Assembly: GCA_000002445.1 (NCBI GenBank)
Contig: AE017150.2
Span: 672,001 to 736,000 of the forward strand
DNA: 64,000 bases
DNA from: Trypanosoma brucei
Taxonomy: Eukaryota
Reading direction: 5' to 3'
A model generated the notes under the pieces. The model did not search any database and had not been told where the DNA came from. It was given only the letters and a program-made list of their open reading frames with translations. Position 1 is the first letter of the stretch. Each line of letters starts with the position of its first letter. Positions 1-46,654 of the stretch are shown here, piece by piece. The position numbers were made by a program, and so were the translations under genes.

Positions 1-843
1 GCCCTCCAAACTTCCACAGTTTCCGAACAATAGTCCTGTCAGTCTTTATTCATTTAAATATGTATTTTTTCATCCCTTCGCGACACACATGCGTGTCCAT
101 AACGTCACGATGTCAATATTTCAACCATGGTGAAACTGCAACGTGCCACACCCCCGGTGAGATCCGATCCTTCCCCTCAACCACACAAACCCTCCTTTCA
201 GATATCGATCGCAATACCTCATACCTATTCAAAATCTCTATTACTCTGCCTTACCCCTCATTCTTTCATTTCCTTTCGTTTCTTGAGGGATCATCTCCGC
301 ATCGCTGCATGAAAAGTAATGATAGGTAATACGAACATGTGCACATACACATGCATGTATAGCGAGAAGAACAATGAAAAGAGAGGAAGGTGTCATATTG
401 GTAATATCGGCGTCATTGAAAATATCCATCCAAGAGCATGCTGAGGGGCCGGCAGGTACGGGGGAAAACATGGAGCAGGGCGACACCGAGAAAGGACAAA
501 ATAAAACAAGACAAAAGAGGGAAAGATATTATCCATCCACAACGTACCGGTACAGCACACACGAAGTCGAGAAAAGGAAGAGGGTAAACGGATAAGGTGA
601 AGTAAACAAAATGTCCTTCGCCGCCCCCTTTTTTTTTCACGGGTTTATATCATCCGTTTGGTGTCTCTTCGTCTGCTTACTTTCACAGTTCCCTTCCCTC
701 CAGCTTTCCACACCCGCCATTCCCTTCGCGGTGGACTGTTCCGTCGCCGCCAATTCATTTCACGAAACCCACCCACTGACAACCGCGGTTTATCCGAACT
801 TCCGTTCGTCATATTCTCACTCATTTCCGCATCAGTGCTGGCT

Positions 844-3345
844 CTATCGAGGCGGCACCTTCAGTACCTTTATTAACGTCGCCAAAAGATTAATGTCATC
901 CTCTGTCAATTCATCCTTAAACAATTTAATCGCATTAACAGATGGACGGGAAATGAGTGAGAAGAGTTCATCCGATTTATCAAACTGTCGCCCGAACGTC
1001 ATTCCACTTTCCCCTGAGTTTATTTTAACCGAACACTCGCAGCCCACGCGGCCAACAGTGATGCTCTTCTTATCGCGCTCTAATGACATCACTCGCCCGA
1101 TGAGATGTGGCGTATCGCCCCGCATAAAAGCGAGTGGCGTTCCCGGGTGGAGCTGACCACACTTCACCTTCACAGGGAGAATAATAGGATCGGTGTTATG
1201 GATGGCATCGTCGAGAATGGTGAGTTGTACAGGAAAGACGGCAATTGCGCGTGCCTTATCTTTTTCCCGCTTCTCATACTCGTTTATATACCTTGTGAAC
1301 ATATCAAACAAATGGTAGATGATCTTGGCCTCAAACATATCGATGTCGTTCTTCTTGGCAATGTCTCGAGCGTCATCGGATATCTCAACATCGAAGGCAA
1401 GAACAACAGCGTGACGCGGTGACTTCCGTTTCATGGAGAGGACATTGATCATATGTCTCTTATGCAGTGGCCCAATGGAGGCGCTTGCAACAGGAATCTT
1501 CATTTTGTTCAAAAACGACAACAAGGCTTCCAGAGAACCAAGTGTAGAGCTTTGCACCGTAACCCCAACACCGTCGGGACTCAACTGGTCCGTAATGCTG
1601 TTCGCATCCTTCATCACCTCCTTTGCAACGGCTTCTTTATCGTCTCCCGGCCGCACGACGAGAAGATGCGAACCAGGAATAACATACTCCAGTTCGTTGG
1701 CCGCAATCTTAATTCCCATTGCTGCCTTCATTGTCTTGTGATGAATGTATTCCCCTCTTACTCGAAGTTCCTTCATGGGTTGTGGTGTGAGCAGTGCACG
1801 GATCTGCGTGAACACGGGCCCGTTCTGCCCACAGAGGCAAATATTGTCGCCCTCGTGAAGCTCGCCGTTGATGAGGATGGCATCGATAGTAAAACCATAC
1901 CCCGTTGTGGGCTTCACCTCCAGAATGGTACATTGCAGGTCATCCTTGTATGTAACTTTCCCTTCCATGAACTGTTGCACCAGTTGAACTTCCAACAGAA
2001 TTAGGTCACAAATGCCTTCTCCTGTCTTGGCCGACGTTGGCACAATTGAAACCACCTTTCGCACCTCCTTGTTATGATAGTACAGTTCGGAATTGAGTCC
2101 CTCTGCAAGCAATTCCTGTTTTACTTGAACAAGCCGTGTGCTAAACTCATCACGGACATTAGGCTTCTGTAAGGAAAGCGTTTGCTCAATGTCCATGTCC
2201 TTGTGAGCAACCCAGTCGTAGAGGCGATCCACTTTGTTCAATGCGACGATGAAGGGGCACTTTTTCTCGCGTAGCAGACGGATTGACTCACGCGTCTGTG
2301 GTTCCAACCCGTGCATTATATCCACAACGAGAATAGCGATGTCGCACAAACTGCTTCCACGACTGCGAAGATTTGTGAAGGACTCGTGACCGGGTGTATC
2401 GATAACGAGAAGACCAGGCACGTTCAGCTGATGCTGGTACTTTTGATTGAGATCAGCTGTGGCTTCAACAATTGATTCCCGTGGAAAAAAGGTGGCACCG
2501 ATCTGCTGCGTAATACCACCGGCCTCACCGCCTTGAACGTTAGTCGCTCGAATACGATCCAATAAACTAGTTTTACCAGTGTCCACGTGTCCAAGAACAC
2601 AACAAATTGGCGACCGGAGTTTTGTCACGCTCTCCAATACATGCTCCTTTGCTCGCCTTTCCTCTTCCTTCGCGCGTTTCCGCGCTTCCTTCGCCTTCAG
2701 TCGCTCTTCCACCATCTCAGCACGTCTCTTACGGATACGCTCGTTATTAATTTTACGCTGCTCTCGCCGATCGTCACGCTCCATCATGGCTTCCCAGTCT
2801 TCCTCGTCCACCTCCGCATCGGACTCTGTTGGCTCCGTCACCTCACCGTCATCTTCCACTGGTAGATCCAAACTGTCTTCGTCTGATTCATGACCGGCTT
2901 TGGCTGCCCTCTCATCAGCTGCGTCTTCCTCCTGTTTCTGAGTAGGCTTTTGTTTTTGCTGCTTAGGTCGTGGGGCTTCCCGCTCCTTTTTCTGCTGTTC
3001 CCGAACTTTCTCCACATCAGGAACGATAAAACCGGCGGCAGCCATACGTTCCAGAACATCATTGCGGGACTCCTTGGTTCCCATTTTGCGAGCCAAGCGC
3101 TCCTCTTCCTTCCGCCGCTGACGTTCCCGGGCGCGCTCTTCCTCTTCAAACCTCCGTTGCTCTTCCGCAAGTCGTTCCTCTTCACGCAACCGTTTTTCCT
3201 CTTCCTCCCGTTCCCTGCGAAGCCGTTCTTCTTCTTCCTTTTGCTTCTCCATGTGCTGCTTAAGTTTTGCGATCATCGCGGCGGGAGGCCCGCCCTTGCG
3301 GGCGGGGGCGCCTTTTGGCGCTGCCTTTGGTCCTTTAGGCGGCAT
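844..3345 (-). CDS. EIF5B: Translation initiation factor eIF5B (IF2-type GTPase).
   Basis: 833-aa ORF. The N-terminal ~220 aa is a highly charged K/E/R-rich tract typical of eIF5B. It is followed by a G-domain with the P-loop VLGHVDTGKTSLLD, the switch region GGITQQIGATFFP and DTPGHESF (G3), then an NKVDRL (G4)-like stretch. The C-terminal beta-barrel domains are consistent with eIF5B/IF2 architecture. Confidence 0.9.
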   Translation of the reverse strand: MPPKGPKAAPKGAPARKGGPPAAMIAKLKQHMEKQKEEEERLRREREEEEKRLREEERLAEEQRRFEEEERARERQRRKEEERLARKMGTKESRNDVLERMAAAGFIVPDVEKVREQQKKEREAPRPKQQKQKPTQKQEEDAADERAAKAGHESDEDSLDLPVEDDGEVTEPTESDAEVDEEDWEAMMERDDRREQRKINNERIRKRRAEMVEERLKAKEARKRAKEEERRAKEHVLESVTKLRSPICCVLGHVDTGKTSLLDRIRATNVQGGEAGGITQQIGATFFPRESIVEATADLNQKYQHQLNVPGLLVIDTPGHESFTNLRSRGSSLCDIAILVVDIMHGLEPQTRESIRLLREKKCPFIVALNKVDRLYDWVAHKDMDIEQTLSLQKPNVRDEFSTRLVQVKQELLAEGLNSELYYHNKEVRKVVSIVPTSAKTGEGICDLILLEVQLVQQFMEGKVTYKDDLQCTILEVKPTTGYGFTIDAILINGELHEGDNICLCGQNGPVFTQIRALLTPQPMKELRVRGEYIHHKTMKAAMGIKIAANELEYVIPGSHLLVVRPGDDKEAVAKEVMKDANSITDQLSPDGVGVTVQSSTLGSLEALLSFLNKMKIPVASASIGPLHKRHMINVLSMKRKSPRHAVVLAFDVEISDDARDIAKKNDIDMFEAKIIYHLFDMFTRYINEYEKREKDKARAIAVFPVQLTILDDAIHNTDPIILPVKVKCGQLHPGTPLAFMRGDTPHLIGRVMSLERDKKSITVGRVGCECSVKINSGESGMTFGRQFDKSDELFSLISRPSVNAIKLFKDELTEDDINLLATLIKVLKVPPR

Positions 3346-5638
3346 TATCCGTTAAAACGATGTTTCGGCTGGACCGATGGTGGTGCGTGGCGTGCTATGA
3401 AGTAAAGGGTGTAATGGTGTCGGTAGTGGTGATGACGAACAGATAACGTGCGCTAATGGTAATAGTGCTCCGAGCTAACGTATATATATATATATATATA
3501 TCCCAGGCAATCCCCTTTCTTTTTTGCCTTTTCTTCAGAAACTGTGACACGCCACCTACGTTTCCTCCTGTGGTGAGCTGCACCTATTGGCCTCGGCGCC
3601 TTTGATGTTGAATGGCGGAAGAATAACGGTCCGTCCTTCCTTTAATCGCAACGGCGGAAGCGGTTATCGATGAATTGTCGCTGACGTTATTGTTAATGCT
3701 GCTCCTTTAATCTTCTGGTTCAGTTCCACTTACTCTTCTTATTTGATGCAGGAATCTTTAAGTAGGCACAACGTCGTGTTTCAATGCGATGCTCCCGTTT
3801 GTGTTTACTTTATCTTAAAAGATGCCTCTGGAATTACTCCGTGAAAACGGCGGATCCTTTTCGCAATCAACTCAATATATATATATATATATATATAAAT
3901 ATATTCTTCCTTGCCTTCCTGCTTGGACGTGCAATTTCGAATACTCTTCCACAGTTGTCTTTTTTTTTTCTCAGCACACACACACGCAGGCACGTGAGGG
4001 AAACAAATGCAGAGCCCTAACGTTAATTTTACTATTATTGCTTTCGCGTACCTAGTTATTTGTCAATACTCTGTTTCTTATATATATATATATATATATA
4101 TAGACAAATATATTTATTTACAACAAATATATATAATATATACACGTACGTATATGAGGGGACGGATGTGCAGGTATTTTTGTTGTTTAATTCCGGTTTC
4201 TGTCCCGTTGTATTTCGAGAGTACGCGATTTATATCGTCCCCTAACCTTTCCTATGTGATTGAACCGCTTACGTACTGCTGCGGCACTCCTGTTCTGGAG
4301 ATAATTACTTTTTCTTTTAAGAGACTTCAGTGTTGAAATGCTTGCTGCTGCGTATCAAACTATGTGTATATTATATTTGTATACACGTGTATGTGCATGT
4401 GCGTACATGTTAAGAAGTTGAAAACAACAAGAACAACAAAGGAAACGGCAAAGGGACACGATTGTAAAGTTGTGATAAGAAAGGTTAGATATAACAATAA
4501 CAATAATAATAATTTTTTTTTAAAAAGGCGCGTATCGTTCACACAGTGAGCTTCAACAACACAAGCGTACACATTTGTGACGCTCTCTTTCTTCTTTACT
4601 TTCCTTTTCCTCCCTCTTTTTTTTGGGGGGGGGATCTCCCTTCACGAACTAACACAGACAGTTAGTAATATATAAATATAAAAATATGTCAATGGGGTGC
4701 GTGATCATTTCCATTTCCTTTTTCAGCATAGCATCATTCCCTTTCATTGCTTCAAACACACACGCGAAAAGAAAAGCAACAACACCACAAGTTGTGAAGA
4801 GTACCAAACACTTTAAAATATTGCCTAGTGGTGGTGCCGGTAGCGGAAGAAGTAAAGAAAGCAGCGGGAAAGCCTCTCAAAACGTAACGCGGCAGAAAAA
4901 TAAATTAAGTTGAACAAAGAGGAACCACACAAGTACAGGCACATCCCTACAAAAACAACGGTAATACCACTAAAAACAGGTACATGCATCTCAAACGAAC
5001 ACAACCAACAAATCGTAAATGTTGGATCACAACACAAAAAGAATATATACCGCTGCAGCTGTTGTGAAAAGTAAGATGAAAACAAAAAACAAAACAACAA
5101 CGTCAGGCACAAAAGTAGAAAGTTTACTACTAAGTACTCCACAAAAGCGATCATGAGACCGAGTGATATTCCGCGTAATTGTGAATACAAAAAAAAGCGG
5201 GAGAGGGATGAGACTTCTCACCAGAGATTTTCTTTCTCATTTTTTCCTTTTACCTTCATTTCTCCAGTTGGGCATTCACATGTTTGCTTTTTGGATTATT
5301 CGGAGTCACTACGCTGCACTGCCATTATCTGTTCACTCGCCGACAGCACATAATAGTGTAGGTGAAACAAGTAAAACAACCCCTGTACCATGTTAATCCT
5401 ATCCATAAACAGCCAAATATATAAGTATAAATATACAAATATAGATATTTATCTCTTTGTTCAATCTACTCTATTTTATTCCCTCATTAACTGTCTAGAG
5501 AACTGACGAGAAATAAAGATGCCCCCCCCCCCCGCTACACACACATACACACATACAGACACACACACGAACACGCACAAAAATAAAAAAAAGAACAATA
5601 ATAACAATAACACCGAGATCAACAACAACAAGAAATGC

Positions 5639-7150
5639 CTAGTATGCCGAAACGGCAGTCATGGTGTGAACCATAAGTTCCTCCATTCCTTCTTCTAGCG
5701 CTGCCGCAAGTTTGTTACCGTATTCCCACAGTTCGTCCGTAAGTGCAGCTATATCAATCCTTTCAGCCTGTTGGGGTAGCGGCACAATCCACTCATACTC
5801 CAAACGTTCGCCCTCGTCCCCAGCCTTTGTGATGATGAGCGGCGTTCGTTTTGTCTCTACAAGTTGAAGTGTTACACCAGTGGCCGTTTTCTTGGCCCAC
5901 TTGCGAACCACACGCTCACAACAGTACACAACATCACCTAATTCCGGCGATAACACCGACTGCACAGAATCCCGTGTGCTACGTAGTATGTCCGCTTCAA
6001 GGTAAGCATCCGCAATACGTTTCTTGATGGGATGCCTGGCACGCACGACGTAACGCAAATCGGGCATCTTACTGCGAATGTAGTGTGAAACGAAGAACCG
6101 ATCCCACGGTTTGTTCATCATCGTGCACTTAAGTTGACCATTGAGCTCACAATCGAAAAACTCTGCCATGCGACGGATTGTGACTTTATAGCTCGTTGTG
6201 CGTTCCTGTTGGATGCTCATGTTAAGAGCTGCCGCCAGAGACTCCATGGCCGCTACGTTGGATTCGCTCGCAATGGCAAACCAGGCATACGGATGCTGAG
6301 CGTAGAGATGCTTTTGCACTGTCCACAGCGGCATGACATTACGATTTTGCTTTGCCACACTGCGATAGTAAAGTGCCTTACCCGCTCCGATGTTAAGCTC
6401 ACCCGGCATATTCATATTCCAAATATTCATGAGGCACCATTCAAAGGCCATTCGGAATCGCATTTTGTTTGCGTCGTTTGGGGCAACGTGAATTGCTGCC
6501 AGGGCATTCTTCACCTTACTTTGCCCCGGAAGTTTGCTCGGGTCGATACTCGCAATACCCACATCTGTAGCTGTCTCACTGTGCAGAAGCTGAAAGGCTC
6601 GAGGAGAAAGCGGATCATAACGTTCGCCCATTCGTCCAGGGCTTAATTCCATAAAGTCCAACTCACGACGGTCCTCAAAACCGGGTTCTGCACCCCAATC
6701 ACCGTATTCATCCGCTTCTTCCAGCGCATCTTCGGCACGATCATAGTCCGTCACAACAATGGCGTGTGGGTTGTCCTCCTGCGGTACCGTTGCGCTCGCC
6801 TGCTGCTCAGCGGAGAGAATTTCTTCCACCTGCCGCACCAACGCACTCTTTTTTGCACGAGGGTCCACATTTGCCACGCGGCAGTGCTCCTGTAAAAAAA
6901 AAGCAAGTTCCGGTACTGAAAGTGAAAAGAGATTGCCTTCATTCCATAAGCCCCATACGGTGTTACGAGTAATGTGTGAGAAGTCACCGCTGGCTGCCGG
7001 TGCAGCTGCAGAAAAAGACTGCTGACGAGTCGCAATTTGCAGCGGTGCGACTGCTCGGCTAAAGGCACTTGTTGCACCGTTCAAAGCGCTGAATATTTTC
7101 AGGCGCGCGCGCAGCATGTAAAAAAACTTTTTAGAAAGAGAAAAAAACAA
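5639..7150 (-). CDS. Conserved hypothetical protein with a predicted N-terminal mitochondrial presequence. No recognisable catalytic motif.
   Basis: 503-aa uninterrupted ORF on the same strand as its neighbours. The first 11 codons (MFFSLSKKFFY) look like a translated pyrimidine-rich UTR. The more likely start is the ATG at 7115..7117 (minus), giving MLRARLKIFSALNGATSAFSRAVAPLQIATRQQSF, an Arg/Ser/Ala-rich amphipathic presequence-like segment. An acidic stretch (DYDRAEDALEEADEYGDWGAEPGFED) follows. Confidence 0.7.
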   Translation of the reverse strand: MFFSLSKKFFYMLRARLKIFSALNGATSAFSRAVAPLQIATRQQSFSAAAPAASGDFSHITRNTVWGLWNEGNLFSLSVPELAFFLQEHCRVANVDPRAKKSALVRQVEEILSAEQQASATVPQEDNPHAIVVTDYDRAEDALEEADEYGDWGAEPGFEDRRELDFMELSPGRMGERYDPLSPRAFQLLHSETATDVGIASIDPSKLPGQSKVKNALAAIHVAPNDANKMRFRMAFEWCLMNIWNMNMPGELNIGAGKALYYRSVAKQNRNVMPLWTVQKHLYAQHPYAWFAIASESNVAAMESLAAALNMSIQQERTTSYKVTIRRMAEFFDCELNGQLKCTMMNKPWDRFFVSHYIRSKMPDLRYVVRARHPIKKRIADAYLEADILRSTRDSVQSVLSPELGDVVYCCERVVRKWAKKTATGVTLQLVETKRTPLIITKAGDEGERLEYEWIVPLPQQAERIDIAALTDELWEYGNKLAAALEEGMEELMVHTMTAVSAY

Positions 7151-38847: not shown

Positions 38848-41800
38848 TCAATTCTTCTTCGGTGATATCGATGGTGATTCAGGAGGTGACAAGCAGATAA
38901 TATTGTTATCATTCTGTGAGTAATATTGTTGACGATGAATCAGAGCGAGTCTTTTGGAGTTGGTGCTGCTTCCACGCTCGTGATCTATGTTCAGCGTCAG
39001 CGTAGGTGGGATTATACCCTCTGCATTTACATTTAACCTGGGACGCCGCTCAGAATTAACATCAAAACGCCGAATCGCCCTTTCGAACTTATGACGGAAG
39101 TTACTCGTGAACATCGTATCATCAGCGGCCTCCTCCTTGGCCACATTTTCTGATAAACCCCTCACACTGCACTCGGAGCAAATGACACTATTATTAGTTA
39201 CCTGGAAGTACGCGTCTGATATGCTATTCGCACCACACAGTTTGCAGCGAATACATTGTGGATGGAAATGCAATTTTCCGGCTTCGACACGTGTGACGGC
39301 GTCAACGGGACAGCCACAGTAAGCACACCCGACGTGAATCTCCTCAACAACGTGGATAGGACCCGTATAGTTGAGGGAAACACCGTTGCGAGCGCGAAAG
39401 ACAGAGTATTCTTCGGCGGGAGTTAAATTAAGGGGGTTGCGAACCCTCTGTATAACGTGAGGACCGTAATAATTTTCGTAAAGGAGACCTTTCCTTTTTC
39501 TCCTGACATGCTTGCCCACCGTTCCAGCTGCGGGTTGGTGCTGAGCAGATGCTAACACCTCCTGTTTCGCAGGCTTATCCCCTTTGCTCTTTTCCAATGT
39601 CCGTTGTGGCTCCTTCCCCACATTCGGTGTGAGATCCTTCTTTTCGGAGGGATTGACAGCGGCGCTCTCCACCCTTTTCGGTCCGTCGGCGCTGGCATCC
39701 TTCGGCAATGCAAGTTCCTTTGCCATACCACCCGGACCCGCCGTCTGGGCCCTTACTCCTGCATCTGAGTGTAAAGGAGTTGGTGTAGTGGCGCTCGTTT
39801 CCGTCTCTTTCCGCTCTGGAAATCCACTACCTTCCGTATTTTTCACATCATCCTCTCTGCTACTAACTACCGCGATATCCTGTTCACCCCGGGCGCCTCC
39901 AGAAACTCCAGCGGAACCAACAGTATTGACCACTTCATCATATTCAACAACCGGGGGATTTTCTCCACTCGGAGCCTCAAGGGTCTTAATATCATCAACA
40001 GCCCCAGCGGAGGCAATTGCGTCAGTTTCTACTCCAGTAACCTCAGCAAGAGGAGCCTCAGTGTTGTTGGCGGCCCGCTCGCTCTCTAGGTCCTTGAGCA
40101 CCTCTACAGCTTCGTGGGTAGCTTTGTTTTTGTCTACGGCCTTTGCGTCATTATCGACCTCGATACCACCGGAGGTTATTGCACCATCAACTACACTGTC
40201 ATCCCTAGTCGTGTCTGCTTGGTAAACAATCTCAGACTCCTCTACCACAACGGCAGATTCAGTGCCATCAACGCTAATTGTAACCTCGGCTCCCTCGATA
40301 ACTTCTGTGGCTTCCACAGTCTCAGTGGCATTGAGAGCCTCAACAGCTTCTGCAACTTCTGTGGCTTCCACAGTCTCAGTGGCATTGAGAGCCTCAGCAG
40401 CTTCTGCAACTTCTGTGGCTTCCACAGTCTCAGTGGCATTGAGAGCCTCAACAGCTTCTGCAACTTCCATAGCTTCGACAGTCTCAGTGGCATTGAGAGC
40501 CTCAGCAGCTTCTGCAACTTCTGTGGCTTCCACAGTCTCAGTGGCATTGAGAGCCTCAGCAGTTTCTGCAACTTCTGTGGCTTCCACAGTCTCAGTGGCA
40601 TTGAGAGCCCCAGCAGTTTCTGCAACTTCTGTGGCTTCCACAGTCTCAGTGGCATTGAGAGCCTCAGCAGTTTCTGCAACTTCTGTGGCTTCCACAGTCT
40701 CAGTGGCATTGAGAGCCCCAGCAGTTTCTGCAACTTCTGTGGCTTCCACAGTCTCAGTGGCATTGAGAGCCTCAGCAGTTTCTGCAACTTCTGTGGCTTC
40801 CACAGTCTCAGTGGCATTGAGAGCCTCAGCAGCTTCTGCAACTTCTGTGGCTTCCACAGTCTCAGTGGCATTGAGAGCCTCAGCAGCTTCTGCAACTTCT
40901 GTGGCTTCCACAGTCTCAGTGGCATTGAGAGCCTCAGCAGCTTCTGCAACTTCCGTGGCTTCCACAGTCTCAGTGGCATTGAGAGCCTCAGCAGTTTCTG
41001 CAACTTCTGTGGCTTCCACAGTCTCAGTGGCATTGAGAGCCTCAACAGCTTCTGCAACTTCCGTGGCTTCCACAGTCTCAGTGGCATTGAGAGCCTCAAC
41101 AGCTTCTGCAACTTCCGTGGCTTCCACAGTCTCAGTGGCATTGAGAGCCTCAACAGCTTCTGCAACTTCCGTGGCTTCCACAGTCTCAGTGGCATTGAGA
41201 GCCTCAACAGCTTCTGCAACTTCTGTGGCTTCCACAGTCTCAGTGGCATTGAGAGCCTCAGCAGCCTCTGCAGCTTCCGTGGCTTCCACAGTCTCAGTGG
41301 CATTGAGAGCCTCAGCAGTTTCTGCAACTTCTGTGGCTTCCACAGTCTCAGTGGCATTGAGAGCCTCAACAGCTTCTGCAACTTCTGTGGCTTCCACAGT
41401 CTCAGTGGCATTGAGAGCCTCAGCAGCTTCTGCAACTTCCGTGGCTTCCACAGTCTCAGTGGCATTGAGAGCCTCAGCAGTTTCTGCAACTTCTGTGGCT
41501 TCCACAGTCTCAGTGGCATTGAGAGCCTCAGCAGTTTCTGCAACTTCTGTGGCTTCCACAGTCTCAGTGGCATTGAGAGCCTCAGCAGCTTCTGCAACTT
41601 CTGTGGCTTCCACAGTCTCAGTGGCATTGAGAGCCTCAGCAGCTTCTGCAACTTCTGTGGCTTCCACAGTCTCAGTGGCATTGAGAGCCTCAGCAGTTTC
41701 TGCAACTTCTGTGGCTTCCACAGTCTCAGTGGCATTGAGAGCCTCAGCAGCTTCTGCAACTTCTGTGGCTTCCACAGTCTCAGTGGCATTGAGAGCCTCA

Positions 41801-42594
41801 GCAGCTTCTGCAACTTCTGTGGCTTCCACAGTCTCAGTGGCATTGAGAGCCTCAGCAGTTTCTGCAACTTCTGTGGCTTCCACAGTCTCAGTGGCATTGA
41901 GAGCCTCAACAGCTTCTGCAACTTCTGTGGCTTCCACAGTCTCAGTGGCATTGAGAGCCTCAGCAGCTTCTGCAACTTCTGTGGCTTCCACAGTCTCAGT
42001 GGCATTGAGAGCCTCAACAGCTTCTGCAACTTCCGTGGCTTCCACAGTCTCAGTGGCATTGAGAGCCTCAGCAGCTTCTGCAACTTCCGTGGCTTCCACA
42101 GTCTCAGTGGCATCATCTGCTTCAACAGTTTCTGCAACTTCCATAGCTTCGACAGTCTCAGTGGCATCATCTGCTTCAACAATCTCTGAAACTTCCATGA
42201 TTTCTACAGTCTCAGCGGCATCAGTGGTTACATTGTCTGTTCCGTAGCTTTTTTTTTTAATTTCTCCAATATGATTTTCTGTATTTGTGCCACAGATGCT
42301 TCCTGGAACTTGGTGTGTTTCAGTGGTATCTGAGCTCTTGATTGCTTCAATTGTCTCGTTTTCTTTAGGGTCCATGGGTGGAGAGGCAGTTTCAAAGTTT
42401 CGTTCGTCATTTAGTGTCACGCAATCACTTGCGTCGATACCTTTCCTGGTATTGGCAAGATCAGGAGGAGACGATATGTCGTGGAGATTAACTTCATCCT
42501 CCTCAGCATTTGTGTCGGGCGCACCTTCTAAGCTTTCAGGAAAACTTCCACGACTCGAAGACATTACCACCGCTTCAATATGCGAATGCGGCAC
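38848..42594 (-). CDS. Repeat-containing LIM-domain protein. Acidic N-terminus, ~36 tandem 18-aa repeats (ATETVEATEVAEAAEALN consensus), then a unique C-terminal region with a single canonical LIM domain.
   Basis: 1248-aa ORF. It is the only frame that stays open through unique flanks on both sides of the repeat array. Residues ~140-775 are near-perfect 18-aa repeats with variation only at AEA[A/V/T]EALN or AGALN. LIM domain at nt 39169..39327: C-AY-C-(17)-H-PQ-C-IR-C-KL-C-(18)-C-SE-C, matching C-x2-C-x16-23-H-x2-C-x2-C-x2-C-x16-21-C-x2-C exactly. An alternative start is the ATG at 42562..42564 (MSSSRGSF...). Confidence 0.85.
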   Translation of the reverse strand: MPHSHIEAVVMSSSRGSFPESLEGAPDTNAEEDEVNLHDISSPPDLANTRKGIDASDCVTLNDERNFETASPPMDPKENETIEAIKSSDTTETHQVPGSICGTNTENHIGEIKKKSYGTDNVTTDAAETVEIMEVSEIVEADDATETVEAMEVAETVEADDATETVEATEVAEAAEALNATETVEATEVAEAVEALNATETVEATEVAEAAEALNATETVEATEVAEAVEALNATETVEATEVAETAEALNATETVEATEVAEAAEALNATETVEATEVAEAAEALNATETVEATEVAETAEALNATETVEATEVAEAAEALNATETVEATEVAEAAEALNATETVEATEVAETAEALNATETVEATEVAETAEALNATETVEATEVAEAAEALNATETVEATEVAEAVEALNATETVEATEVAETAEALNATETVEATEAAEAAEALNATETVEATEVAEAVEALNATETVEATEVAEAVEALNATETVEATEVAEAVEALNATETVEATEVAEAVEALNATETVEATEVAETAEALNATETVEATEVAEAAEALNATETVEATEVAEAAEALNATETVEATEVAEAAEALNATETVEATEVAETAEALNATETVEATEVAETAGALNATETVEATEVAETAEALNATETVEATEVAETAGALNATETVEATEVAETAEALNATETVEATEVAEAAEALNATETVEAMEVAEAVEALNATETVEATEVAEAAEALNATETVEATEVAEAVEALNATETVEATEVIEGAEVTISVDGTESAVVVEESEIVYQADTTRDDSVVDGAITSGGIEVDNDAKAVDKNKATHEAVEVLKDLESERAANNTEAPLAEVTGVETDAIASAGAVDDIKTLEAPSGENPPVVEYDEVVNTVGSAGVSGGARGEQDIAVVSSREDDVKNTEGSGFPERKETETSATTPTPLHSDAGVRAQTAGPGGMAKELALPKDASADGPKRVESAAVNPSEKKDLTPNVGKEPQRTLEKSKGDKPAKQEVLASAQHQPAAGTVGKHVRRKRKGLLYENYYGPHVIQRVRNPLNLTPAEEYSVFRARNGVSLNYTGPIHVVEEIHVGCAYCGCPVDAVTRVEAGKLHFHPQCIRCKLCGANSISDAYFQVTNNSVICSECSVRGLSENVAKEEAADDTMFTSNFRHKFERAIRRFDVNSERRPRLNVNAEGIIPPTLTLNIDHERGSSTNSKRLALIHRQQYYSQNDNNIICLSPPESPSISPKKN
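40290..42235. repeat. Tandem array of ~36 copies of a 54-bp unit (plus-strand unit close to TTCTGTGGCTTCCACAGTCTCAGTGGCATTGAGAGCCTCAGCAGCTTCTGCAAC), with degenerate copies at both ends.
   Basis: Directly visible periodicity of 54 nt across ~1.9 kb. Only a few polymorphic positions separate copies (aacagc/agcagc/agcagt, ttctgt/ttccgt). The homogeneity keeps all six frames open, giving artefactual ORFs 40114..42189(+), 40262..42247(+) and 40242..42182(-). Confidence 0.95.
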
Positions 42595-43418
42595 TATCTA
42601 GTACGGGAGCCGAGCGAAAAGTATATCTAAATACTGTGATGGTTGAACTAAGTGTGGTGGGTTCCACGGGAGGGAAAATTTAACATTAAGATGATCCGGA
42701 GTGAACGTGCATTGAAGGATGCTGTAGCAAGAAACCACAGTTTCAGGGATTTTTTTTTAAAGGCTGAAACCATACCTGACTCCTTTTCGCTTGTCTGGTG
42801 CGACGGTTGGTAACAAGGTGTAGTACGTACACACACCAAACAGAGCTCTATGGCTGGGAAGTAGACGACATGAGGAACGCGGTCACAGAACAAAACGCAC
42901 CCCACAATGAGTAAAACCGTAAAATGTAAAATGATCTGTGCTGAGATTAATTGACCAAGAAAACATTATAAGAGAACCTGTGAGCCCTTAAATCTCTTTC
43001 ATTGCTCTAATTTCTCACTTTTATTCCTTTTTGCATTTTAATACATAGTTACTTCTTTCTTCTTGTACCAACTCCAGGAGCTGAACCGCGTAAGGTCTAA
43101 AAACTAATAGTTTGTTTCCACTGCTGCAGTTTCACCTCCCCATCATATTTTTATCTTTGTTTTACGTTAGCCTCATTTTTTTCTTTATGCCCTCTGATGA
43201 CCATCCAGTTTGCACACCTCAGTTAGAAAGGTGCACTCCCCTAGTCACCTGCAGATATCGAGCCTTTCTGATCCATTTTGCCCTGTCCTGCTACTAATGT
43301 ACATCACCATGCGGACGCCAGCGGTAACATTTGCCTTACTCCCAACAAAAGTCACCGTCTTCTCATGCTACAGCTGCTCTGTTTTCCAGTGCCTAAATAC
43401 CGCACGGTACGGCACAGG

Positions 43419-46013
43419 TTATGTGGTCGCCTTTCGAACTACATCCTCCAACTCACGTTCTTGTTCCTCCAGAGACAAGTTCATACTACTGTAGTACTGA
43501 CCGATAAGACGAAAGACCGTGACATCACCCTTCTCATCGCCTACCACAACAGCAGGGGCATCTTGTTCAGCGAATAGCACCGCGGTGAGGCGTCGCCTGT
43601 CCACATATTGCACACGAGAGGTAGGATGAATGGATTCGGCAATGGACCAAAATTCGACACTTCCTTGTGCACTTACGGTGGCAAAACTTGTAGAGTTTGC
43701 GTAGGACCACGCCACATCCTGCACCGCATCCTGGTTGGGACTGTCAAACGTCAGCACTTGTGCAGATTGACCAAGGCGATAAAGACGAGAACTCCAGTCA
43801 GCCGAACAAGTTAGAAAATAGTTGTCACTGTATGGAGACCACCGCACGCGATACACTAGCTCAGAGTGGGGGGCATAGTCTAGTTCGTAGTTCTCTGTCT
43901 GACTCTTGTTGCATTGATGCACGGAACCATCTTCCGTACCAACTACATACACACTTCCATCAGCTGGACAGACATCAAAGCACATACCACCACATTGCCG
44001 TGAAAAAAGCGCTTCACATCTACGTCGTTGCGTCGGCATTTTCAGACCCGCAGGAGCGCCATCTTTTTTACCATTCAGGACGCCGCTCGACTCAGCGGCG
44101 AACGCAGACTCTGATGCGGCACCGTGCTGCCTCTTGAGGTTCATAAGATCAGGAGCCACACGCTCAATGGTTTTACCGACAGCCCACTGTACAACACGAC
44201 CATCGCCGGATATGGAAAGGAGGAACTCTCCTCGCTCCTTCCGCCGCGCCACCCATTTCAGCTCCCACACCGCCCCAGTGTGCTGACCGCTTGTGAGGGT
44301 GGTTTTGATAGCGGGGATATTTGTGTCCTTTCGTATGTCATAAATAACGATGCGCCCCTCCGTATTTCCGACCGCAAGAAGACTCGGATGCTCGTCGGAA
44401 AAGGCAATGGAGGAAACACCAGCTTCGGAGGAAAGTTGAATAACGCGCTCAGGAGCAAGAGGATTCTTGAGCGACCAGCAACATACAATACCACCATGAA
44501 ACATGTGTGGGGCATCTAACATTTGAGTCTCTTCGTCATGATACGCGCTGTAACCCACAGCAAGAATGTCGGTCTCTTTGCAATTCCACGCCATACAGGT
44601 TACCTCGCGCCGCTTTGTGATGGGCGATCGAAACGTCCATAAGGCCCTCACATCTTCAGGCAACTTCACTGGTGGCACTTCCGCCTTTTGTGCAACTGCT
44701 GCAGCAGAATCGTCGACCCCAGCTGTCTGTTGATCATTCTGCTGCTCTGCTTCTTTATTATCATCCGTAGTTGCAGAGTTCATGTCGTCTGAATCAGGTC
44801 CCATCAGACCTGACGTTGCCGCTTCCTCCTTCCTTACCCGACAAGCTTCTGGATCCATTACTATCCCTCTATAGGAGAGCTGCACCTCTTCCATGGTATT
44901 CTGCACGACTACGCGCTCCATCACGCGCAGGGTTGACATGATCGTGTCCGAAAACATCCACGCCACTGACTGTTGGGATGTACTTGCATTACTAGGATCT
45001 GTTGTGCGCTCGGAACCCGTATCCTTTCCGGTATCCGAGGGGTCCTCAACAAGTTCTACTTCCTCCTCCTCCTCATCCGCGGTTCCCTCTTGGTCTTCGT
45101 CATTTGTATCATTTTCGGCAAAATGCGCAAACGCGTCGCGAAGCATCCACGGTGTGACTTGTAACCCACCAGAATTCTTTTTGGACGGAGGCTGTATGGC
45201 AGAGTGAATAGACTTTTTCGGTGGCGCAAACGTCCAGGAGCCCTTCACCTGAAACCGCGTCCCCTCGTCCACACGTTTTGCCTCAACCAACTCGGCATAC
45301 GCTTTGTTGCGCTCTAAAACTTCGTTTAACTCAGTCGGCCGATCGTTTGGAACTACTTCATCCTGGTGCATGTAGAGCATGATCGTTGGGGTTTCGTGAA
45401 GCACAACAGTTGTTTTTTCCTCTAACCACTCGCGGCGCTGCTCCCGAGTGAGCACCTGCGTCGCGTCGCCGCGGCCGTGACCATCCCACGACGTGTGTGG
45501 CGGCGCGTCAGCCAGCGGACCACTTCCGGCTGCTCGAGCGGAACCGGTGGTTGTGCTCGAGAGGCGGTGATCAATTGAAATACTCGTGAGTGAGGACGAC
45601 GCAGTGAGGAATCCGACTTGAGATTGATTTGCCCCTTCTCCCGTGGATGGAATTGGAACAACATCAGCAGAAGCATTCAAGGCAGATGACTGAAATATGG
45701 AGTTGGAGTCGGGAAGCATTGCTTGACTTACAGACGTCGTTATCTGACCGCTTGTGTTCTGACTAAAGGGGTGACGCGGATCGTGCGGAGCTCCGCTACC
45801 AGCCCTTTGAAGTGGAAGCGGTGTACGGTCAACGCCATTGTCCAGAACGTGAATTGCTGCTTCTACTTCCTTTTTTGAGTCCGTTGAGCGCCGCCTGCCT
45901 TCCCCTTTACCCCGACGGACGTGGGAACCTCTCACCGCGCTACGGTCACTGCCGCCCCGGCGGTGTCCGCCCGTGGTTGACATTTGGTTTCCACTCGAGG
46001 AGCCATTTTTCAT
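43419..46013 (-). CDS. WD40-repeat protein, dynein intermediate chain-like (axonemal inner-arm I1 IC138/IC140 or IFT-dynein WDR60-like class).
   Basis: The ORF extends to 46367, but its first 118 codons (MGYNGGSSLSSSLFFSLLPHLYVF...) read as translated polypyrimidine UTR. The likely start is the ATG at 46011..46013 (MKNGSSSGNQMSTTGGHRRGG). A long disordered S/T/acidic N-terminal half is followed by a C-terminal WD40 block (LAVGYSAYHD, LLAVGNTEGRIVIYDIRKD, HTGAVWELKWV, FLLSISGDGRVVQWAV, YVVGTEDGSVHQC, FLTCSADWSSRLY). That arrangement is the standard dynein-IC layout. Confidence 0.75.
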   Translation of the reverse strand: MKNGSSSGNQMSTTGGHRRGGSDRSAVRGSHVRRGKGEGRRRSTDSKKEVEAAIHVLDNGVDRTPLPLQRAGSGAPHDPRHPFSQNTSGQITTSVSQAMLPDSNSIFQSSALNASADVVPIPSTGEGANQSQVGFLTASSSLTSISIDHRLSSTTTGSARAAGSGPLADAPPHTSWDGHGRGDATQVLTREQRREWLEEKTTVVLHETPTIMLYMHQDEVVPNDRPTELNEVLERNKAYAELVEAKRVDEGTRFQVKGSWTFAPPKKSIHSAIQPPSKKNSGGLQVTPWMLRDAFAHFAENDTNDEDQEGTADEEEEEVELVEDPSDTGKDTGSERTTDPSNASTSQQSVAWMFSDTIMSTLRVMERVVVQNTMEEVQLSYRGIVMDPEACRVRKEEAATSGLMGPDSDDMNSATTDDNKEAEQQNDQQTAGVDDSAAAVAQKAEVPPVKLPEDVRALWTFRSPITKRREVTCMAWNCKETDILAVGYSAYHDEETQMLDAPHMFHGGIVCCWSLKNPLAPERVIQLSSEAGVSSIAFSDEHPSLLAVGNTEGRIVIYDIRKDTNIPAIKTTLTSGQHTGAVWELKWVARRKERGEFLLSISGDGRVVQWAVGKTIERVAPDLMNLKRQHGAASESAFAAESSGVLNGKKDGAPAGLKMPTQRRRCEALFSRQCGGMCFDVCPADGSVYVVGTEDGSVHQCNKSQTENYELDYAPHSELVYRVRWSPYSDNYFLTCSADWSSRLYRLGQSAQVLTFDSPNQDAVQDVAWSYANSTSFATVSAQGSVEFWSIAESIHPTSRVQYVDRRRLTAVLFAEQDAPAVVVGDEKGDVTVFRLIGQYYSSMNLSLEEQERELEDVVRKATT

Positions 46014-46654
46014 ATTTGTACTTACTTTGTTTTCCTTTTTTTGCTTTATCCCCCTCTCCACAGCTTTGCAATATAGGTGTGCGTTTCTGTATTTGCCCTT
46101 CGTGAACTTTAAGTGCAATGCCTCCTTCCACACTGTTGTCCCTCCCAGCTGTATCCTCTCTTTGCTTGTCGGAAACCGTTGAAAGATGCAACGACGTTGA
46201 AAATTACCCGCCCTCCATGATGTAATGAGCGAGAAGAAGGGGAAGAAAGGGCACGAAACAATCGCAAAAAAAAATATAGGTAAAGAAAAAGGTGAAAATA
46301 CATACAAATGCGGTAATAAAGAAAAAAATAAGGAGCTAGACAAAGATGATCCACCATTATACCCCACCGTATTTAAAAATACAGTTTATTTTCAACTTTG
46401 GGTGAGAAAGTGAGAAAACACAACGCAAAAAAGAGAGGAATGTACAGACACAAGCGCAACAGTTCCACAAACGTGACAGTAACCATGGAATCCCATCGCA
46501 AAATTTTCCTCCTCTCTCCTCTTTTTATATGTTCTAACTTCCTCACCCCGCTCGCGTACACTTCCGCTTCCATTTGAATGCTGCGAGCCAACAAGGGAAA
46601 CTTCTCCCGCCAGGAGGCACTACAGGGACGTACCACACATACGTGAAGTATTAG

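What the first reader, a model, noticed from the sequence alone, without database searches (positions are those of the whole stretch)
38848..42594. Repeat array fused to a canonical LIM domain: an unusual protein architecture for a kinetoplastid
The unique C-terminal region downstream of the repeats contains a perfect LIM zinc-binding module at nt 39169..39327, CAYC-x17-H-x2-C-x2-C-x2-C-x18-C-x2-C. The eight zinc ligands are spaced exactly as in LIM domains. LIM proteins are very sparse in kinetoplastids. A single LIM domain tethered to a ~630-residue acidic repeat rod is not an architecture I can map to a characterised family. It could be a cytoskeletal or flagellar scaffold, since LIM acts as a protein-interaction module, with the repeat as a spacer or antigenic region. 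This is the best candidate in the window for something undescribed.
Basis: partly seen in the sequence, partly recalled or inferred. Interest (0 to 1): 0.85.

Follow-up and report, generated by a model that had tools for sequence, protein, structure and literature searches.

The report
Known flagellar LIM protein with repeats
This gene encodes a Trypanosoma brucei flagellar-skeleton protein whose LIM zinc finger is real, but it has already been placed in published cryo-EM structures of the flagellar doublet microtubule, so only its brucei-specific acidic repeat tail is still unexplained.

Summary
One minus-strand ORF encodes about 35 acidic 18-residue repeats followed by a LIM motif at exactly nt 39169-39327. 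The real ATG is at 42564, giving 1238 aa.

The LIM call is sound:
- Pfam PF00412 scores at its threshold.
- All 36 relatives keep all eight zinc ligands.
- The AF2 model matches only LIM structures.

It is not undescribed. The protein aligns end to end (E=0) with PDB 9E5C chain 0q, in the cryo-EM structure of the T. brucei 96-nm doublet-microtubule repeat (released March 2025). Its Leishmania tarentolae orthologue is chain 4L of 9Y6S. A 2025 preprint supplement lists that orthologue as the external microtubule-associated protein IJAP2, 96-nm periodicity, T. brucei orthologue Tb927.2.4050. Deleting it in L. mexicana left growth, swimming and flagellum length normal. UniProt already calls it a LIM protein.

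The novelty claim was not.

Still open:
- The conserved basic C-terminal module of about 200 aa is the docking part.
- An acidic N-terminal extension is common to the orthologues I measured.
- Only T. brucei-group sequences carry the 18-aa repeat, with 12, 25 and 35 units in three assemblies.
- The repeat's structure and function are unknown.

The parts
38848..42564 (-). Complete CDS (1238 aa plus stop) of the T. brucei axonemal LIM protein Tb927.2.4050, the orthologue of Leishmania IJAP2.
   Evidence: ORF; first ATG read and translated. It aligns over 1-1238 with PDB 9e5c_0q (2374.6 bits, E=0).
42565..42594 (-). Ten extra codons from a GTG start. This is an artefact of the bacterial ORF rule and not part of the gene.
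   Evidence: The T. b. gambiense and T. b. equiperdum proteins and the PDB sequence all start at MSSSRGSF.
42668..42678 (-). The only polypyrimidine tract of at least 10 nt between the upstream gene and the stop codon. It lies about 105 nt upstream of the ATG and is the likely spliced-leader acceptor signal (inferred).
   Evidence: Python scan; sequence. No such tract lies inside the CDS.
42175..42564 (-). N-terminal acidic region (aa 1-130). It is mostly unique sequence; degenerate repeat-like units begin near aa 117.
   Evidence: pI 4.19; 124/130 identical to T. b. gambiense and T. b. equiperdum.
40285..42174 (-). Acidic tandem-repeat region (aa 131-760). It has 2 degenerate units, then 33 canonical 18-aa (54-nt) units from nt 42066 downwards. 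There is no K or R, and the net charge is about -5 per unit.
   Evidence: TRF; unit census. Copy number is 35, 25 and 12 in three T. brucei-group proteins. The repeat is absent from T. congolense and all other orthologues.
39478..40284 (-). Non-repetitive acidic linker (about aa 761-1029). It is not conserved outside the T. brucei group.
   Evidence: pI 4.68. BLASTP against T. congolense aligns only aa 1046-1247.
38851..39477 (-). Conserved basic C-terminal module (aa 1030-1238, pI about 8.4), inferred to be the microtubule/axoneme docking part.
   Evidence: Profile search found 38 family members covering this module; alignment A2. The A2 profile hits 9y6s_4L at 2.9e-74 and 9e5c_0q at 2.4e-65. 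AF2 mean pLDDT is 78.
39328..39429 (-). Family-specific pre-LIM motif (aa 1046-1079, NLTPAEEYSVFRARNGVSLNYTGPIHVVEEIHVG). It is also present in euglenid multi-LIM relatives.
   Evidence: Alignment A2; hhalign against the Rhabdomonas costata protein gives 99.2% probability over this segment plus the LIM.
39169..39327 (-). LIM domain (aa 1080-1132) with eight zinc ligands.
   Evidence: Regex coordinates. Pfam PF00412 scores 23.2-23.6 bits against a gathering score of 22.9. AF2 pLDDT is 94-97 over this stretch. Foldseek matches are 9e5c_0q, 9y6s_4L, then EPLIN, CRP, LMO2 and FHL2 LIM domains.
39046..39153 (-). Predicted long alpha-helix after the LIM domain (aa 1138-1173), moderately conserved among trypanosomatids.
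   Evidence: AF2 secondary structure H109-144; alignment A2.
38890..38958 (-). Conserved C-terminal motif (aa 1203-1225, LALIHRQQYYSQNDNNIICL), predicted helical.
   Evidence: Invariant or nearly invariant L179, R182, Q183, D190 and N192 in A2; AF2 helix 174-189.

Best explanation
The gene is Tb927.2.4050, the T. brucei orthologue of the trypanosomatid axonemal protein IJAP2. IJAP2 is an external microtubule-associated protein of the flagellar doublet microtubule, present once per 96-nm axonemal repeat.

Shown:
- The protein is the sequence deposited as a chain of the solved T. brucei 96-nm doublet structure.
- Only about 97 residues of it are ordered there, and they superpose on my model of the conserved C-terminal module.
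- The L. tarentolae orthologue is modelled in the same kind of structure.

Inferred:
- The basic C-terminal module (pre-LIM motif, LIM double zinc finger and flanking helices) acts as a rigid, zinc-stabilised docking plug. It fixes the protein to a unique site on the doublet surface, probably near the inner junction.
- The long acidic N-terminal part is flexible and projects away from the microtubule. This part is 100-400 aa in most of the trypanosomatid orthologues measured.
- In the T. brucei lineage that acidic extension was enlarged by amplification of a 54-nt unit into a polyanionic tail of about 630 aa. Its copy number differs between subspecies assemblies.
- The protein is an accessory structural or spacer component, not a motor or core regulator. 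This fits the normal swimming of the L. mexicana deletion mutant.
For: - The window protein aligns 1-1238 to 1-1238 with PDB 9e5c_0q (E=0, 2374.6 bits).
- Foldseek names 9e5c as 'Cryo-EM structure of 96 nm repeat of microtubule doublet from T. brucei flagellum'. It has 97 modelled residues, 100% identical to my C-terminal model over 96 columns.
- The family profile hits 9y6s_4L at 2.9e-74. 9Y6S is the L. tarentolae 96-nm DMT repeat (PMC12637542).
- Supplement 2 of that preprint lists IJAP2 = LtaP33.2870 = LmxM.32.2640 = CFAC1_210037100 = Tb927.2.4050, under External MAPs, periodicity 96 nm, 429 aa, in the model.
- Supplement 3 records the deletion in L. mexicana as normal for growth, motility, curling, shape and flagellum length, with a speed of 9.15.
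- The Crithidia orthologue is about 420-fold more abundant in swimming than in attached cells, alongside other flagellar proteins.
- The upstream neighbour is TbIC138, Tb927.2.4060, which fixes the locus.
- The C-terminal module has pI 8.4 and the rest has pI about 4.
- Acidic N-terminal extensions occur in nearly all trypanosomatid orthologues.
- The repeat is found only in T. brucei-group sequences.
Against: - Only about 97 of 1238 residues are ordered in the solved structure. Nothing I could access shows that the repeat region is present in the assembled protein, where it points, or what it touches.
- I could not read the coordinates or the primary paper (Xia et al., Science 2025). The binding site and my reading of 'IJAP' as 'inner-junction-associated protein' are therefore unverified.
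- The Leishmania knockout has no phenotype, so a functional role is not demonstrated in any species.
- Leishmania lacks the repeat, so that experiment says nothing about it.
- Differences in repeat number between assemblies may partly reflect collapsed repeats.
Confidence: 0.85

Rival explanations
1. The repeat region and the LIM module are separate products. An internal trans-splice site or internal initiation would give a short LIM protein of about 290 aa, and the repeat ORF would be a different or non-functional product.
For: - One public annotation (T. equiperdum SCU70885.1, 292 aa) starts at the internal Met 'MAKELALPKD'.
- The cryo-EM chain has only about 97 ordered residues, all from the C-terminal module.
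Against: - The reading frame is uninterrupted over 1238 codons.
- No polypyrimidine tract of at least 10 nt lies inside the CDS, and one lies at the expected place upstream of ATG 42564.
- Nearly all trypanosomatid orthologues have an acidic N-terminal extension contiguous with the module.
- The 292-aa model comes from a 21.7-kb fragmentary contig.
- The gambiense and equiperdum models and the PDB depositors use the full-length protein.
Confidence: 0.05
2. It is a conventional LIM adaptor of the animal type: an actin- or adhesion-associated or nuclear scaffold, with the repeat as spacer, and not a microtubule or axoneme protein.
For: Apart from its own structures, the nearest solved structures are CRP1, EPLIN, LIMD2, MLP and FHL.
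Against: - Identity to these is only 15-28%, and the match is limited to the zinc-finger core.
- The protein and its orthologue are modelled on doublet microtubules.
- No partner domain (PDZ, CH, homeodomain, kinase) is found by Pfam.
- The family-specific pre-LIM and C-terminal motifs have no counterpart in those proteins.
Confidence: 0.03
3. The repeat is functionally neutral. It would be a slippage or unequal-crossover expansion inside an already disordered acidic tail, tolerated because the tail has no sequence-specific role. Any biological effect would be incidental, such as acting as a repetitive B-cell antigen.
For: - Copy number is 12, 25 and 35 in three T. brucei-group assemblies, with flanks 95-99% identical.
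- Units are 96% identical at DNA level, indicating recent homogenisation.
- Orthologues work with unrelated acidic extensions of very different lengths.
- The knockout of the repeat-less orthologue is normal.
Against: - The frame is maintained over 1.9 kb.
- Most unit variants are confined to two or three positions.
- The acidic character is conserved family-wide, which suggests that at least the charge is selected.

This rival overlaps with the best explanation and differs only in denying the repeat any selected role.
Confidence: 0.35

Closest known systems
IJAP2 of Leishmania tarentolae (LtaP33.2870; PDB 9Y6S chain 4L; L. mexicana LmxM.32.2640; Crithidia CFAC1_210037100)
   Same: It is the orthologue. 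It shares the same C-terminal module of about 200 aa (pre-LIM motif, LIM, helix, RQQYYTQND motif) and has an acidic N-terminal extension. It is listed as an external doublet-microtubule MAP with 96-nm periodicity, with Tb927.2.4050 as its T. brucei orthologue.
   Different: It is 429 aa with no tandem repeat, and it is about 35% identical in the module. It has a C-terminal extension, and related orthologues end in an LP[KR]L motif that T. brucei lacks.
T. congolense TCIL3000_2_560 (446 aa) and other Trypanosoma orthologues (T. vivax, T. grayi, T. rangeli, T. conorhini, T. melophagium)
   Same: The T. congolense gene ID points to chromosome 2. The C-terminal 202 aa are 57% identical in T. congolense and 44-51% in the others. 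All eight zinc ligands are kept.
   Different: None has the 18-aa repeat. Their N-terminal regions are 100-235 aa of unrelated acidic sequence.
Animal single- or double-LIM proteins (CRP1 1B8T, EPLIN 2D8Y, LIMD2 2LZU, MLP 2O13)
   Same: They share the LIM fold and ligand spacing. The profile E-value is down to 1.7e-9 and Foldseek probability is about 1.0.
   Different: Identity is 15-28%. They are actin or nuclear adaptors, and they lack the pre-LIM and C-terminal motifs, axonemal binding and an acidic repeat.
Kinetoplastid mitoribosomal LIM protein mL90 (PDB 7AOI chain BX; 7AIH chain Ax)
   Same: It is another kinetoplastid LIM-type zinc finger used as a structural piece of a very large assembly.
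   Different: It belongs to a different complex (the mitochondrial ribosome). The match is weak (E about 0.004), it lacks the shared flanking motifs, and it has no repeats.
Euglenid multi-LIM proteins (Rhabdomonas costata EP00906_P010343, Ploeotia vitrea EP01006_P016273)
   Same: They share the pre-LIM motif plus the first LIM domain (hhalign 99.2%). The docking-module core therefore predates kinetoplastids.
   Different: The module is followed by further LIM domains in place of the helix and RQQYY motif. They have no acidic extension. Their location is unknown.
Trypanosomatid tandem-repeat cytoskeletal/flagellar proteins (e.g. GM6/FAZ11, MARPs; named from my own knowledge, not tested here)
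   Same: They also have long, near-identical tandem repeats in a cytoskeleton-associated protein, with copy number varying between strains.
   Different: The unit sequences are unrelated. Antigenicity of this repeat was not examined. Here the repeat is attached to an axonemal docking module.

Membership tests
LIM domain (Pfam PF00412) | Eight zinc ligands with the spacing C-x2-C-x16-23-H-x2-C-x2-C-x2-C-x16-21-C-x2-(C/H/D). | tested here: met
   The motif is exact at aa 1080-1132 and is kept in all 36 relatives.
LIM domain (Pfam PF00412) | Profile-HMM score at or above the curated gathering score (22.9 bits). | tested here: met
   The score is 23.2-23.6 bits for the C-terminal 209-250 aa, which passes only just. 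It is 21.3 bits, just below the cut-off, when the repeat-rich full protein is scored. All 35 family members match LIM, with a best E-value of 7.1e-9.
LIM domain (Pfam PF00412) | The fold is two consecutive treble-clef zinc fingers. | tested here: met
   AF2 pLDDT is 94-97 across the domain. Every Foldseek PDB match with probability about 1 is a LIM domain. This rests on a predicted model, plus the solved chain, which the depositors labelled LIM.
LIM domain (Pfam PF00412) | The domain binds two zinc ions. | not testable with these tools
   This needs the 9E5C or 9Y6S coordinates or maps, or metal analysis.
IJAP2 / trypanosomatid doublet-microtubule external MAP | It is the polypeptide assigned to axonemal cryo-EM density. 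| tested here: met
   It aligns 1-1238 to 1-1238 with 9e5c_0q, and 96 of the 97 modelled residues are identical to my model.
IJAP2 / trypanosomatid doublet-microtubule external MAP | Orthology to LtaP33.2870 / LmxM.32.2640. | tested here: met
   The profile E-value against 9y6s_4L is 2.9e-74 over the whole module. The authors' own table gives Tb927.2.4050 as the orthologue. The locus is fixed by the neighbour Tb927.2.4060, IC138.
IJAP2 / trypanosomatid doublet-microtubule external MAP | 96-nm periodicity and a position on the outer surface of the doublet. | not testable with these tools
   This is taken from supplement 2 of PMC12637542. I could not inspect coordinates or maps.
Multi-domain animal LIM scaffold classes (PDZ-LIM, CH-LIM, LIM-homeodomain, LIM-kinase, paxillin/zyxin) | Several LIM domains, or a LIM domain joined to a PDZ, CH, homeodomain or kinase domain. 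| tested here: not met
   Pfam finds a single LIM and no other genuine domain. The regex finds one LIM motif.
Plasmodium histidine-rich protein (PF05403) and LED repeat (PF20854), both hit by the repeat region | His-rich AHH-type repeats for PF05403, and a specific LED repeat sequence for PF20854. | tested here: not met
   The repeat region is 30% A, 27% E, 18% T and 13% V, and the listed repeat units contain no His. The 86-bit PF05403 hit is a composition artefact even though it exceeds the cut-off.

The most novel reading that the evidence does not exclude
The T. brucei-specific polyanionic repeat of about 630 residues might be a selected adaptation and not a neutral expansion. It would be a long acidic projection planted once every 96 nm on each doublet by the LIM plug.

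Possible roles:
- an electrostatic or entropic spacer
- a cation (Ca2+/Mg2+) sink
- a mimic or competitor of tubulin's glutamate-rich tails

Any of these would tune the unusual tip-to-base beat or the doublet-to-paraflagellar-rod and attached-flagellum mechanics peculiar to this lineage.

One coincidence is worth recording. 630 residues as an alpha-helix would span about 95 nm, one axonemal repeat. However, the variable copy number between assemblies and the lack of basic residues argue against a ruler.
Probability: 0.1. Interest if true: 0.45.

Novelty: already known. Interest (0 to 1): 0.2.

Why it matters
As a discovery claim it matters little. The protein, its LIM domain and its place in the flagellar axoneme are already in the PDB (9E5C, 9Y6S), in UniProt and TriTrypDB annotation, and in a knockout screen.

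Three points have modest residual value:
- A LIM zinc finger serving as a docking plug on axonemal doublet microtubules is, as far as the searchable literature goes, not discussed anywhere in main text.
- The docking core (pre-LIM motif plus LIM) reaches back to euglenids.
- T. brucei alone has turned the acidic tail into a large, copy-number-variable repeat whose role is untested.

That last point is a small, directly testable question for trypanosome flagellum biologists. It is also a possible repetitive antigen.

Tried and rejected
- **Word-indexed homologue search** with the C-terminal 300 aa found only T. congolense. The exhaustive HMM search was needed to see the family.
- **Literature searches** for 'LIM domain' with T. 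brucei, Leishmania/flagell*, or doublet microtubule gave only incidental table entries. Tb927.2.4050 appears in no searchable main text. 'IJAP' is not defined in any held text. Xia et al., Science 2025, is not held. The Doran et al. 2025 text and supplement do not mention it. I first suspected the zinc-binding DC6, but its orthologue is Tb927.8.4910, so I rejected that.
- **Taxon of the short (180-280 aa) environmental homologues.** The contig L001 is gene-dense and mostly unidirectional, but three neighbouring proteins have no PDB relatives and no Pfam hits. The taxon stays unknown.
- **Conformation of the repeat.** Single-sequence AF2 gave a beta-strand stack (best model pLDDT 68.5), but the five models disagree (43-68). 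Foldseek finds nothing significant; the best hit has E 0.03 and TM 0.17, to left-handed beta-helices. I treat this as uninformative.
- **Helical-wheel reasoning (my own)** shows Glu on all faces and no basic residues. That argues against an amphipathic or salt-bridged single helix. I considered a '96-nm ruler' reading and set it aside because copy number differs between assemblies.
- **The bacterial promoter/terminator scan** is irrelevant for this organism.
- **The long ORFs** on the opposite strand and in other frames of the repeat (40114-42189 +, 40262-42247 +, 40242-42182 -) are by-products of a stop-free repeat unit.


Full report
**1. What is in the sequence**

Region 38848..42594 is a single uninterrupted minus-strand ORF. 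It lies in a 64-kb stretch where every ORF of at least 250 aa that is not a by-product of the repeat is on the minus strand, as expected for a kinetoplastid polycistronic unit.

The listed GTG start comes from the bacterial ORF rule. An in-frame TAG lies two codons upstream, and the first ATG is at 42564. The CDS is therefore 38848..42564 and encodes 1238 aa.

Tandem Repeats Finder reports one array at 40300..42167 (54-nt period, 34.6 copies, 96% matches). It is the only strong array in the window. In the protein this is 33 canonical 18-residue units (consensus ALNATETVEATEVAEAAE, 9 DNA variants) preceded by two degenerate units. The repeat region is about 630 aa, with pI 4.05, 30% Ala, 27% Glu, 18% Thr and 13% Val.

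**2. Is it a LIM domain?**

- Pfam PF00412 matches positions 1-55 of its 58. It scores 23.2-23.6 bits on the isolated C-terminal region (gathering score 22.9) and 21.3 bits in the context of the whole repetitive protein. On its own this is borderline.
- An exhaustive profile search with the C-terminal module found a family of about 38 proteins.
- All 36 members examined keep all eight ligands with LIM spacing.
- All 35 aligned members hit PF00412, with a best E-value of 7.1e-9.
- The family profile finds CRP1, EPLIN, LIMD2, MLP and FHL LIM domains in the PDB.
- An AF2 model built on the family alignment has pLDDT 94-97 across the domain. By Foldseek it matches only LIM structures.

**3. What the protein is**

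The decisive result came from the PDB sequence search.

- The window protein aligns 1-1238 to 1-1238 with chain 0q of entry 9E5C (E=0, 2374.6 bits). The depositors call that chain 'LIM zinc-binding domain-containing protein'.
- Foldseek identifies 9E5C as the 'Cryo-EM structure of 96 nm repeat of microtubule doublet from T. brucei flagellum', released 2025-03-12. It has 97 modelled residues, 100% identical to my C-terminal model over 96 columns.
- A second entry, 9Y6S chain 4L (429 aa), matches the family profile at 2.9e-74. 9Y6S is the 96-nm doublet repeat of Leishmania tarentolae (bioRxiv 10.1101/2025.11.06.687033 = PMC12637542).
- Supplement 2 of that preprint lists, under 'External MAPs': IJAP2 = LtaP33.2870 = LmxM.32.2640 = CFAC1_210037100 = Tb927.2.4050, periodicity 96 nm, 429 residues, present in the model.
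- The locus assignment fits. The next gene upstream (43419..46367 as listed) is a WD40 protein. Tb927.2.4060 is TbIC138, 864 aa (PMC4640498), which is the length obtained from the internal ATG of that ORF.
- The remaining neighbours are a ThiF enzyme, SRP receptor beta, an M16 peptidase and an enoyl-CoA hydratase/3-hydroxyacyl-CoA dehydrogenase.

**4. Functional data already public**

- Supplement 3 of the same preprint records a complete deletion of LmxM.32.2640 in L. mexicana. Swimming speeds were 9.12, 9.10 and 9.23. Growth, motility, curling, cell shape and flagellum length were all normal.
- The protein was quantified in their flagellar proteomics.
[quoted passage not shown] It sits in a list with several proteins that the preprint's table shows to be doublet-microtubule components, such as RIB72D, CFAP106A, DMIP8 and DMIP23 (PMC11520290; gene IDs cross-checked).
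- UniProt already names the T. b. gambiense, T. b. equiperdum, T. vivax, T. rangeli, T. conorhini and Porcisia proteins 'LIM zinc-binding domain-containing protein'. GenBank calls the T. equiperdum one 'LIM domain containing protein, putative'.

**5. Anatomy of the family**

The conserved part is the C-terminal module of about 200 aa (alignment A2). It has four elements:
- a pre-LIM motif (..EEY..FR.RN.V...Y.GPV.VVED..V) that runs straight into the first cysteine
- the LIM domain, with family-specific residues (C..CG.PVDPV.RVPVG.LFFHP.C.RC.LC)
- a helix predicted at model residues 109-144
- a C-terminal motif (L..RQQYYTQND.NI) predicted as a helix

The module is basic (pI 8.4), whereas everything N-terminal to it is strongly acidic.

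Named members come from T. congolense, T. vivax, T. grayi, T. rangeli, T. conorhini, T. melophagium, Porcisia, Phytomonas, Angomonas and L. tarentolae. Nearly all of them carry an acidic N-terminal extension of 100-400 aa with pI 4.0-5.3.

Shorter environmental homologues (180-280 aa) lack the extension. Their taxa are unknown.

Two euglenid transcriptome proteins (Rhabdomonas costata, Ploeotia vitrea) share the pre-LIM motif and first LIM but continue with further LIM domains.

**6. The repeat**

- The 18-aa repeat occurs only in the T. brucei group. The T. congolense orthologue (446 aa) aligns only over aa 1046-1247, at 57% identity.
- Unit counts are 35 in the window, 25 in T. b. gambiense DAL972 (1076 aa) and 12 in T. 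b. equiperdum (824 aa). The flanks are 95-99% identical. Part of this variation may be assembly collapse.
- The Pfam hits of the repeat to Plasmodium_HRP (86 bits, above its cut-off) and LED_rpt are composition artefacts.
- Single-sequence AF2 of 230 residues gave a stack of short beta-strands. The five models disagree (mean pLDDT 43-68) and nothing in the PDB resembles the best one. The conformation is therefore undetermined.
- With about five Glu and no Lys or Arg per unit, a disordered polyanion is the most economical expectation. This is an inference.

**7. One product or two?**

- No polypyrimidine tract of at least 10 nt occurs inside the CDS.
- The only one between the upstream gene and the stop codon is at 42678-42668, about 105 nt before the ATG.
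- The orthologues' contiguous acidic extensions also argue for a single product.
- One 292-aa annotation starts at an internal Met, but it comes from a fragmentary T. equiperdum contig.

This is indirect evidence. RNA-seq spliced-leader mapping would settle it.

**8. Mechanism**

Shown: the protein is a component of the solved axonemal doublet, and only its C-terminal module is ordered there.

Inferred:
- The basic, zinc-stabilised module is a docking plug that recognises one site per 96-nm repeat on the doublet surface. I read 'IJAP' as inner-junction-associated protein, but no text I could access defines it.
- The acidic N-terminal part is a flexible projection.
- In T. brucei the projection was enlarged by unequal crossing-over of a 54-nt unit.
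- Its role is accessory, given the normal Leishmania knockout.

Whether the enlarged tail has any selected function in T. brucei is open. I give roughly one chance in three that it is simply a tolerated expansion with no selected role. I give one in ten that it has a specific lineage-adapted function.

**9. Verdict**

The finding is real but already explained. The LIM domain and the guess of a flagellar scaffold are correct. The claim of an undescribed architecture is not.

Novelty: already known. Interest: 0.2. The residual question is what the brucei-specific acidic repeat does, and why a LIM finger serves as an axonemal docking module. It is small but directly testable.

Noticed in passing
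window 43419..46367 (-); probable true CDS 43419..46013: The gene immediately upstream in the same transcription unit is the inner-arm dynein intermediate chain IC138 (Tb927.2.4060, 864 aa from the internal ATG). Two axonemal genes therefore sit side by side. The listed 982-aa ORF is over-extended by a GTG start.
   Followed up: partly
window 40114..42247, other frames and strand: Three long ORFs (691, 661 and 646 aa) overlap the repeat on the plus strand and in another minus-strand frame. They exist only because the 54-nt unit lacks stop codons in those frames, and they are not genes.
   Followed up: yes
window 40285..42174 (-), protein aa 106-760: The repeat scores 86 bits against Pfam Plasmodium_HRP (cut-off 45.8) and 54.6 bits against LED_rpt, although the listed repeat units contain no histidine. 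This is a composition-driven false positive that passes a curated threshold.
   Followed up: yes
orthologues P0003, P0004, P0006, P0011, P0012, P0014, P0015, P0020 (extreme C-termini): Many orthologues end in a short [LMF]P[KRQ]L[MKTH] motif (e.g. MPKLM, LPRLK, LPQLT). The T. brucei protein stops earlier, at ...SPKKN. The meaning is unknown.
   Followed up: no
P0038 (Rhabdomonas costata), P0040 (Ploeotia vitrea), P0037: Euglenid proteins carry the same pre-LIM motif and first LIM domain, followed by further LIM domains. The docking-module core therefore appears older than kinetoplastids and occurs in a different architecture.
   Followed up: partly
L001 (ENA ERZ27237200 contig, 12.4 kb) 1..6721: A short (184 aa) extension-less homologue lies on a gene-dense environmental contig. 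Seven of the eight called genes are on one strand, intergenic gaps are about 100 bp, and the neighbours have no Pfam or PDB matches. The source organism is unidentified.
   Followed up: partly
P0049 (T. equiperdum SCU70885.1, 292 aa): This public gene model starts at the internal Met (MAKELALPKD, about aa 947 of the window protein) on a 21.7-kb contig. It is probably truncated because the repeat did not assemble.
   Followed up: partly
window 41575..42264 (-), AF2 model mc13b19778522: Single-sequence AlphaFold predicts two short beta-strands per 18-aa unit, with pLDDT up to 86 in the best model. The five models disagree, and there is no significant structural match, only faint similarity to 18-residue-per-turn left-handed beta-helices.
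   Followed up: partly
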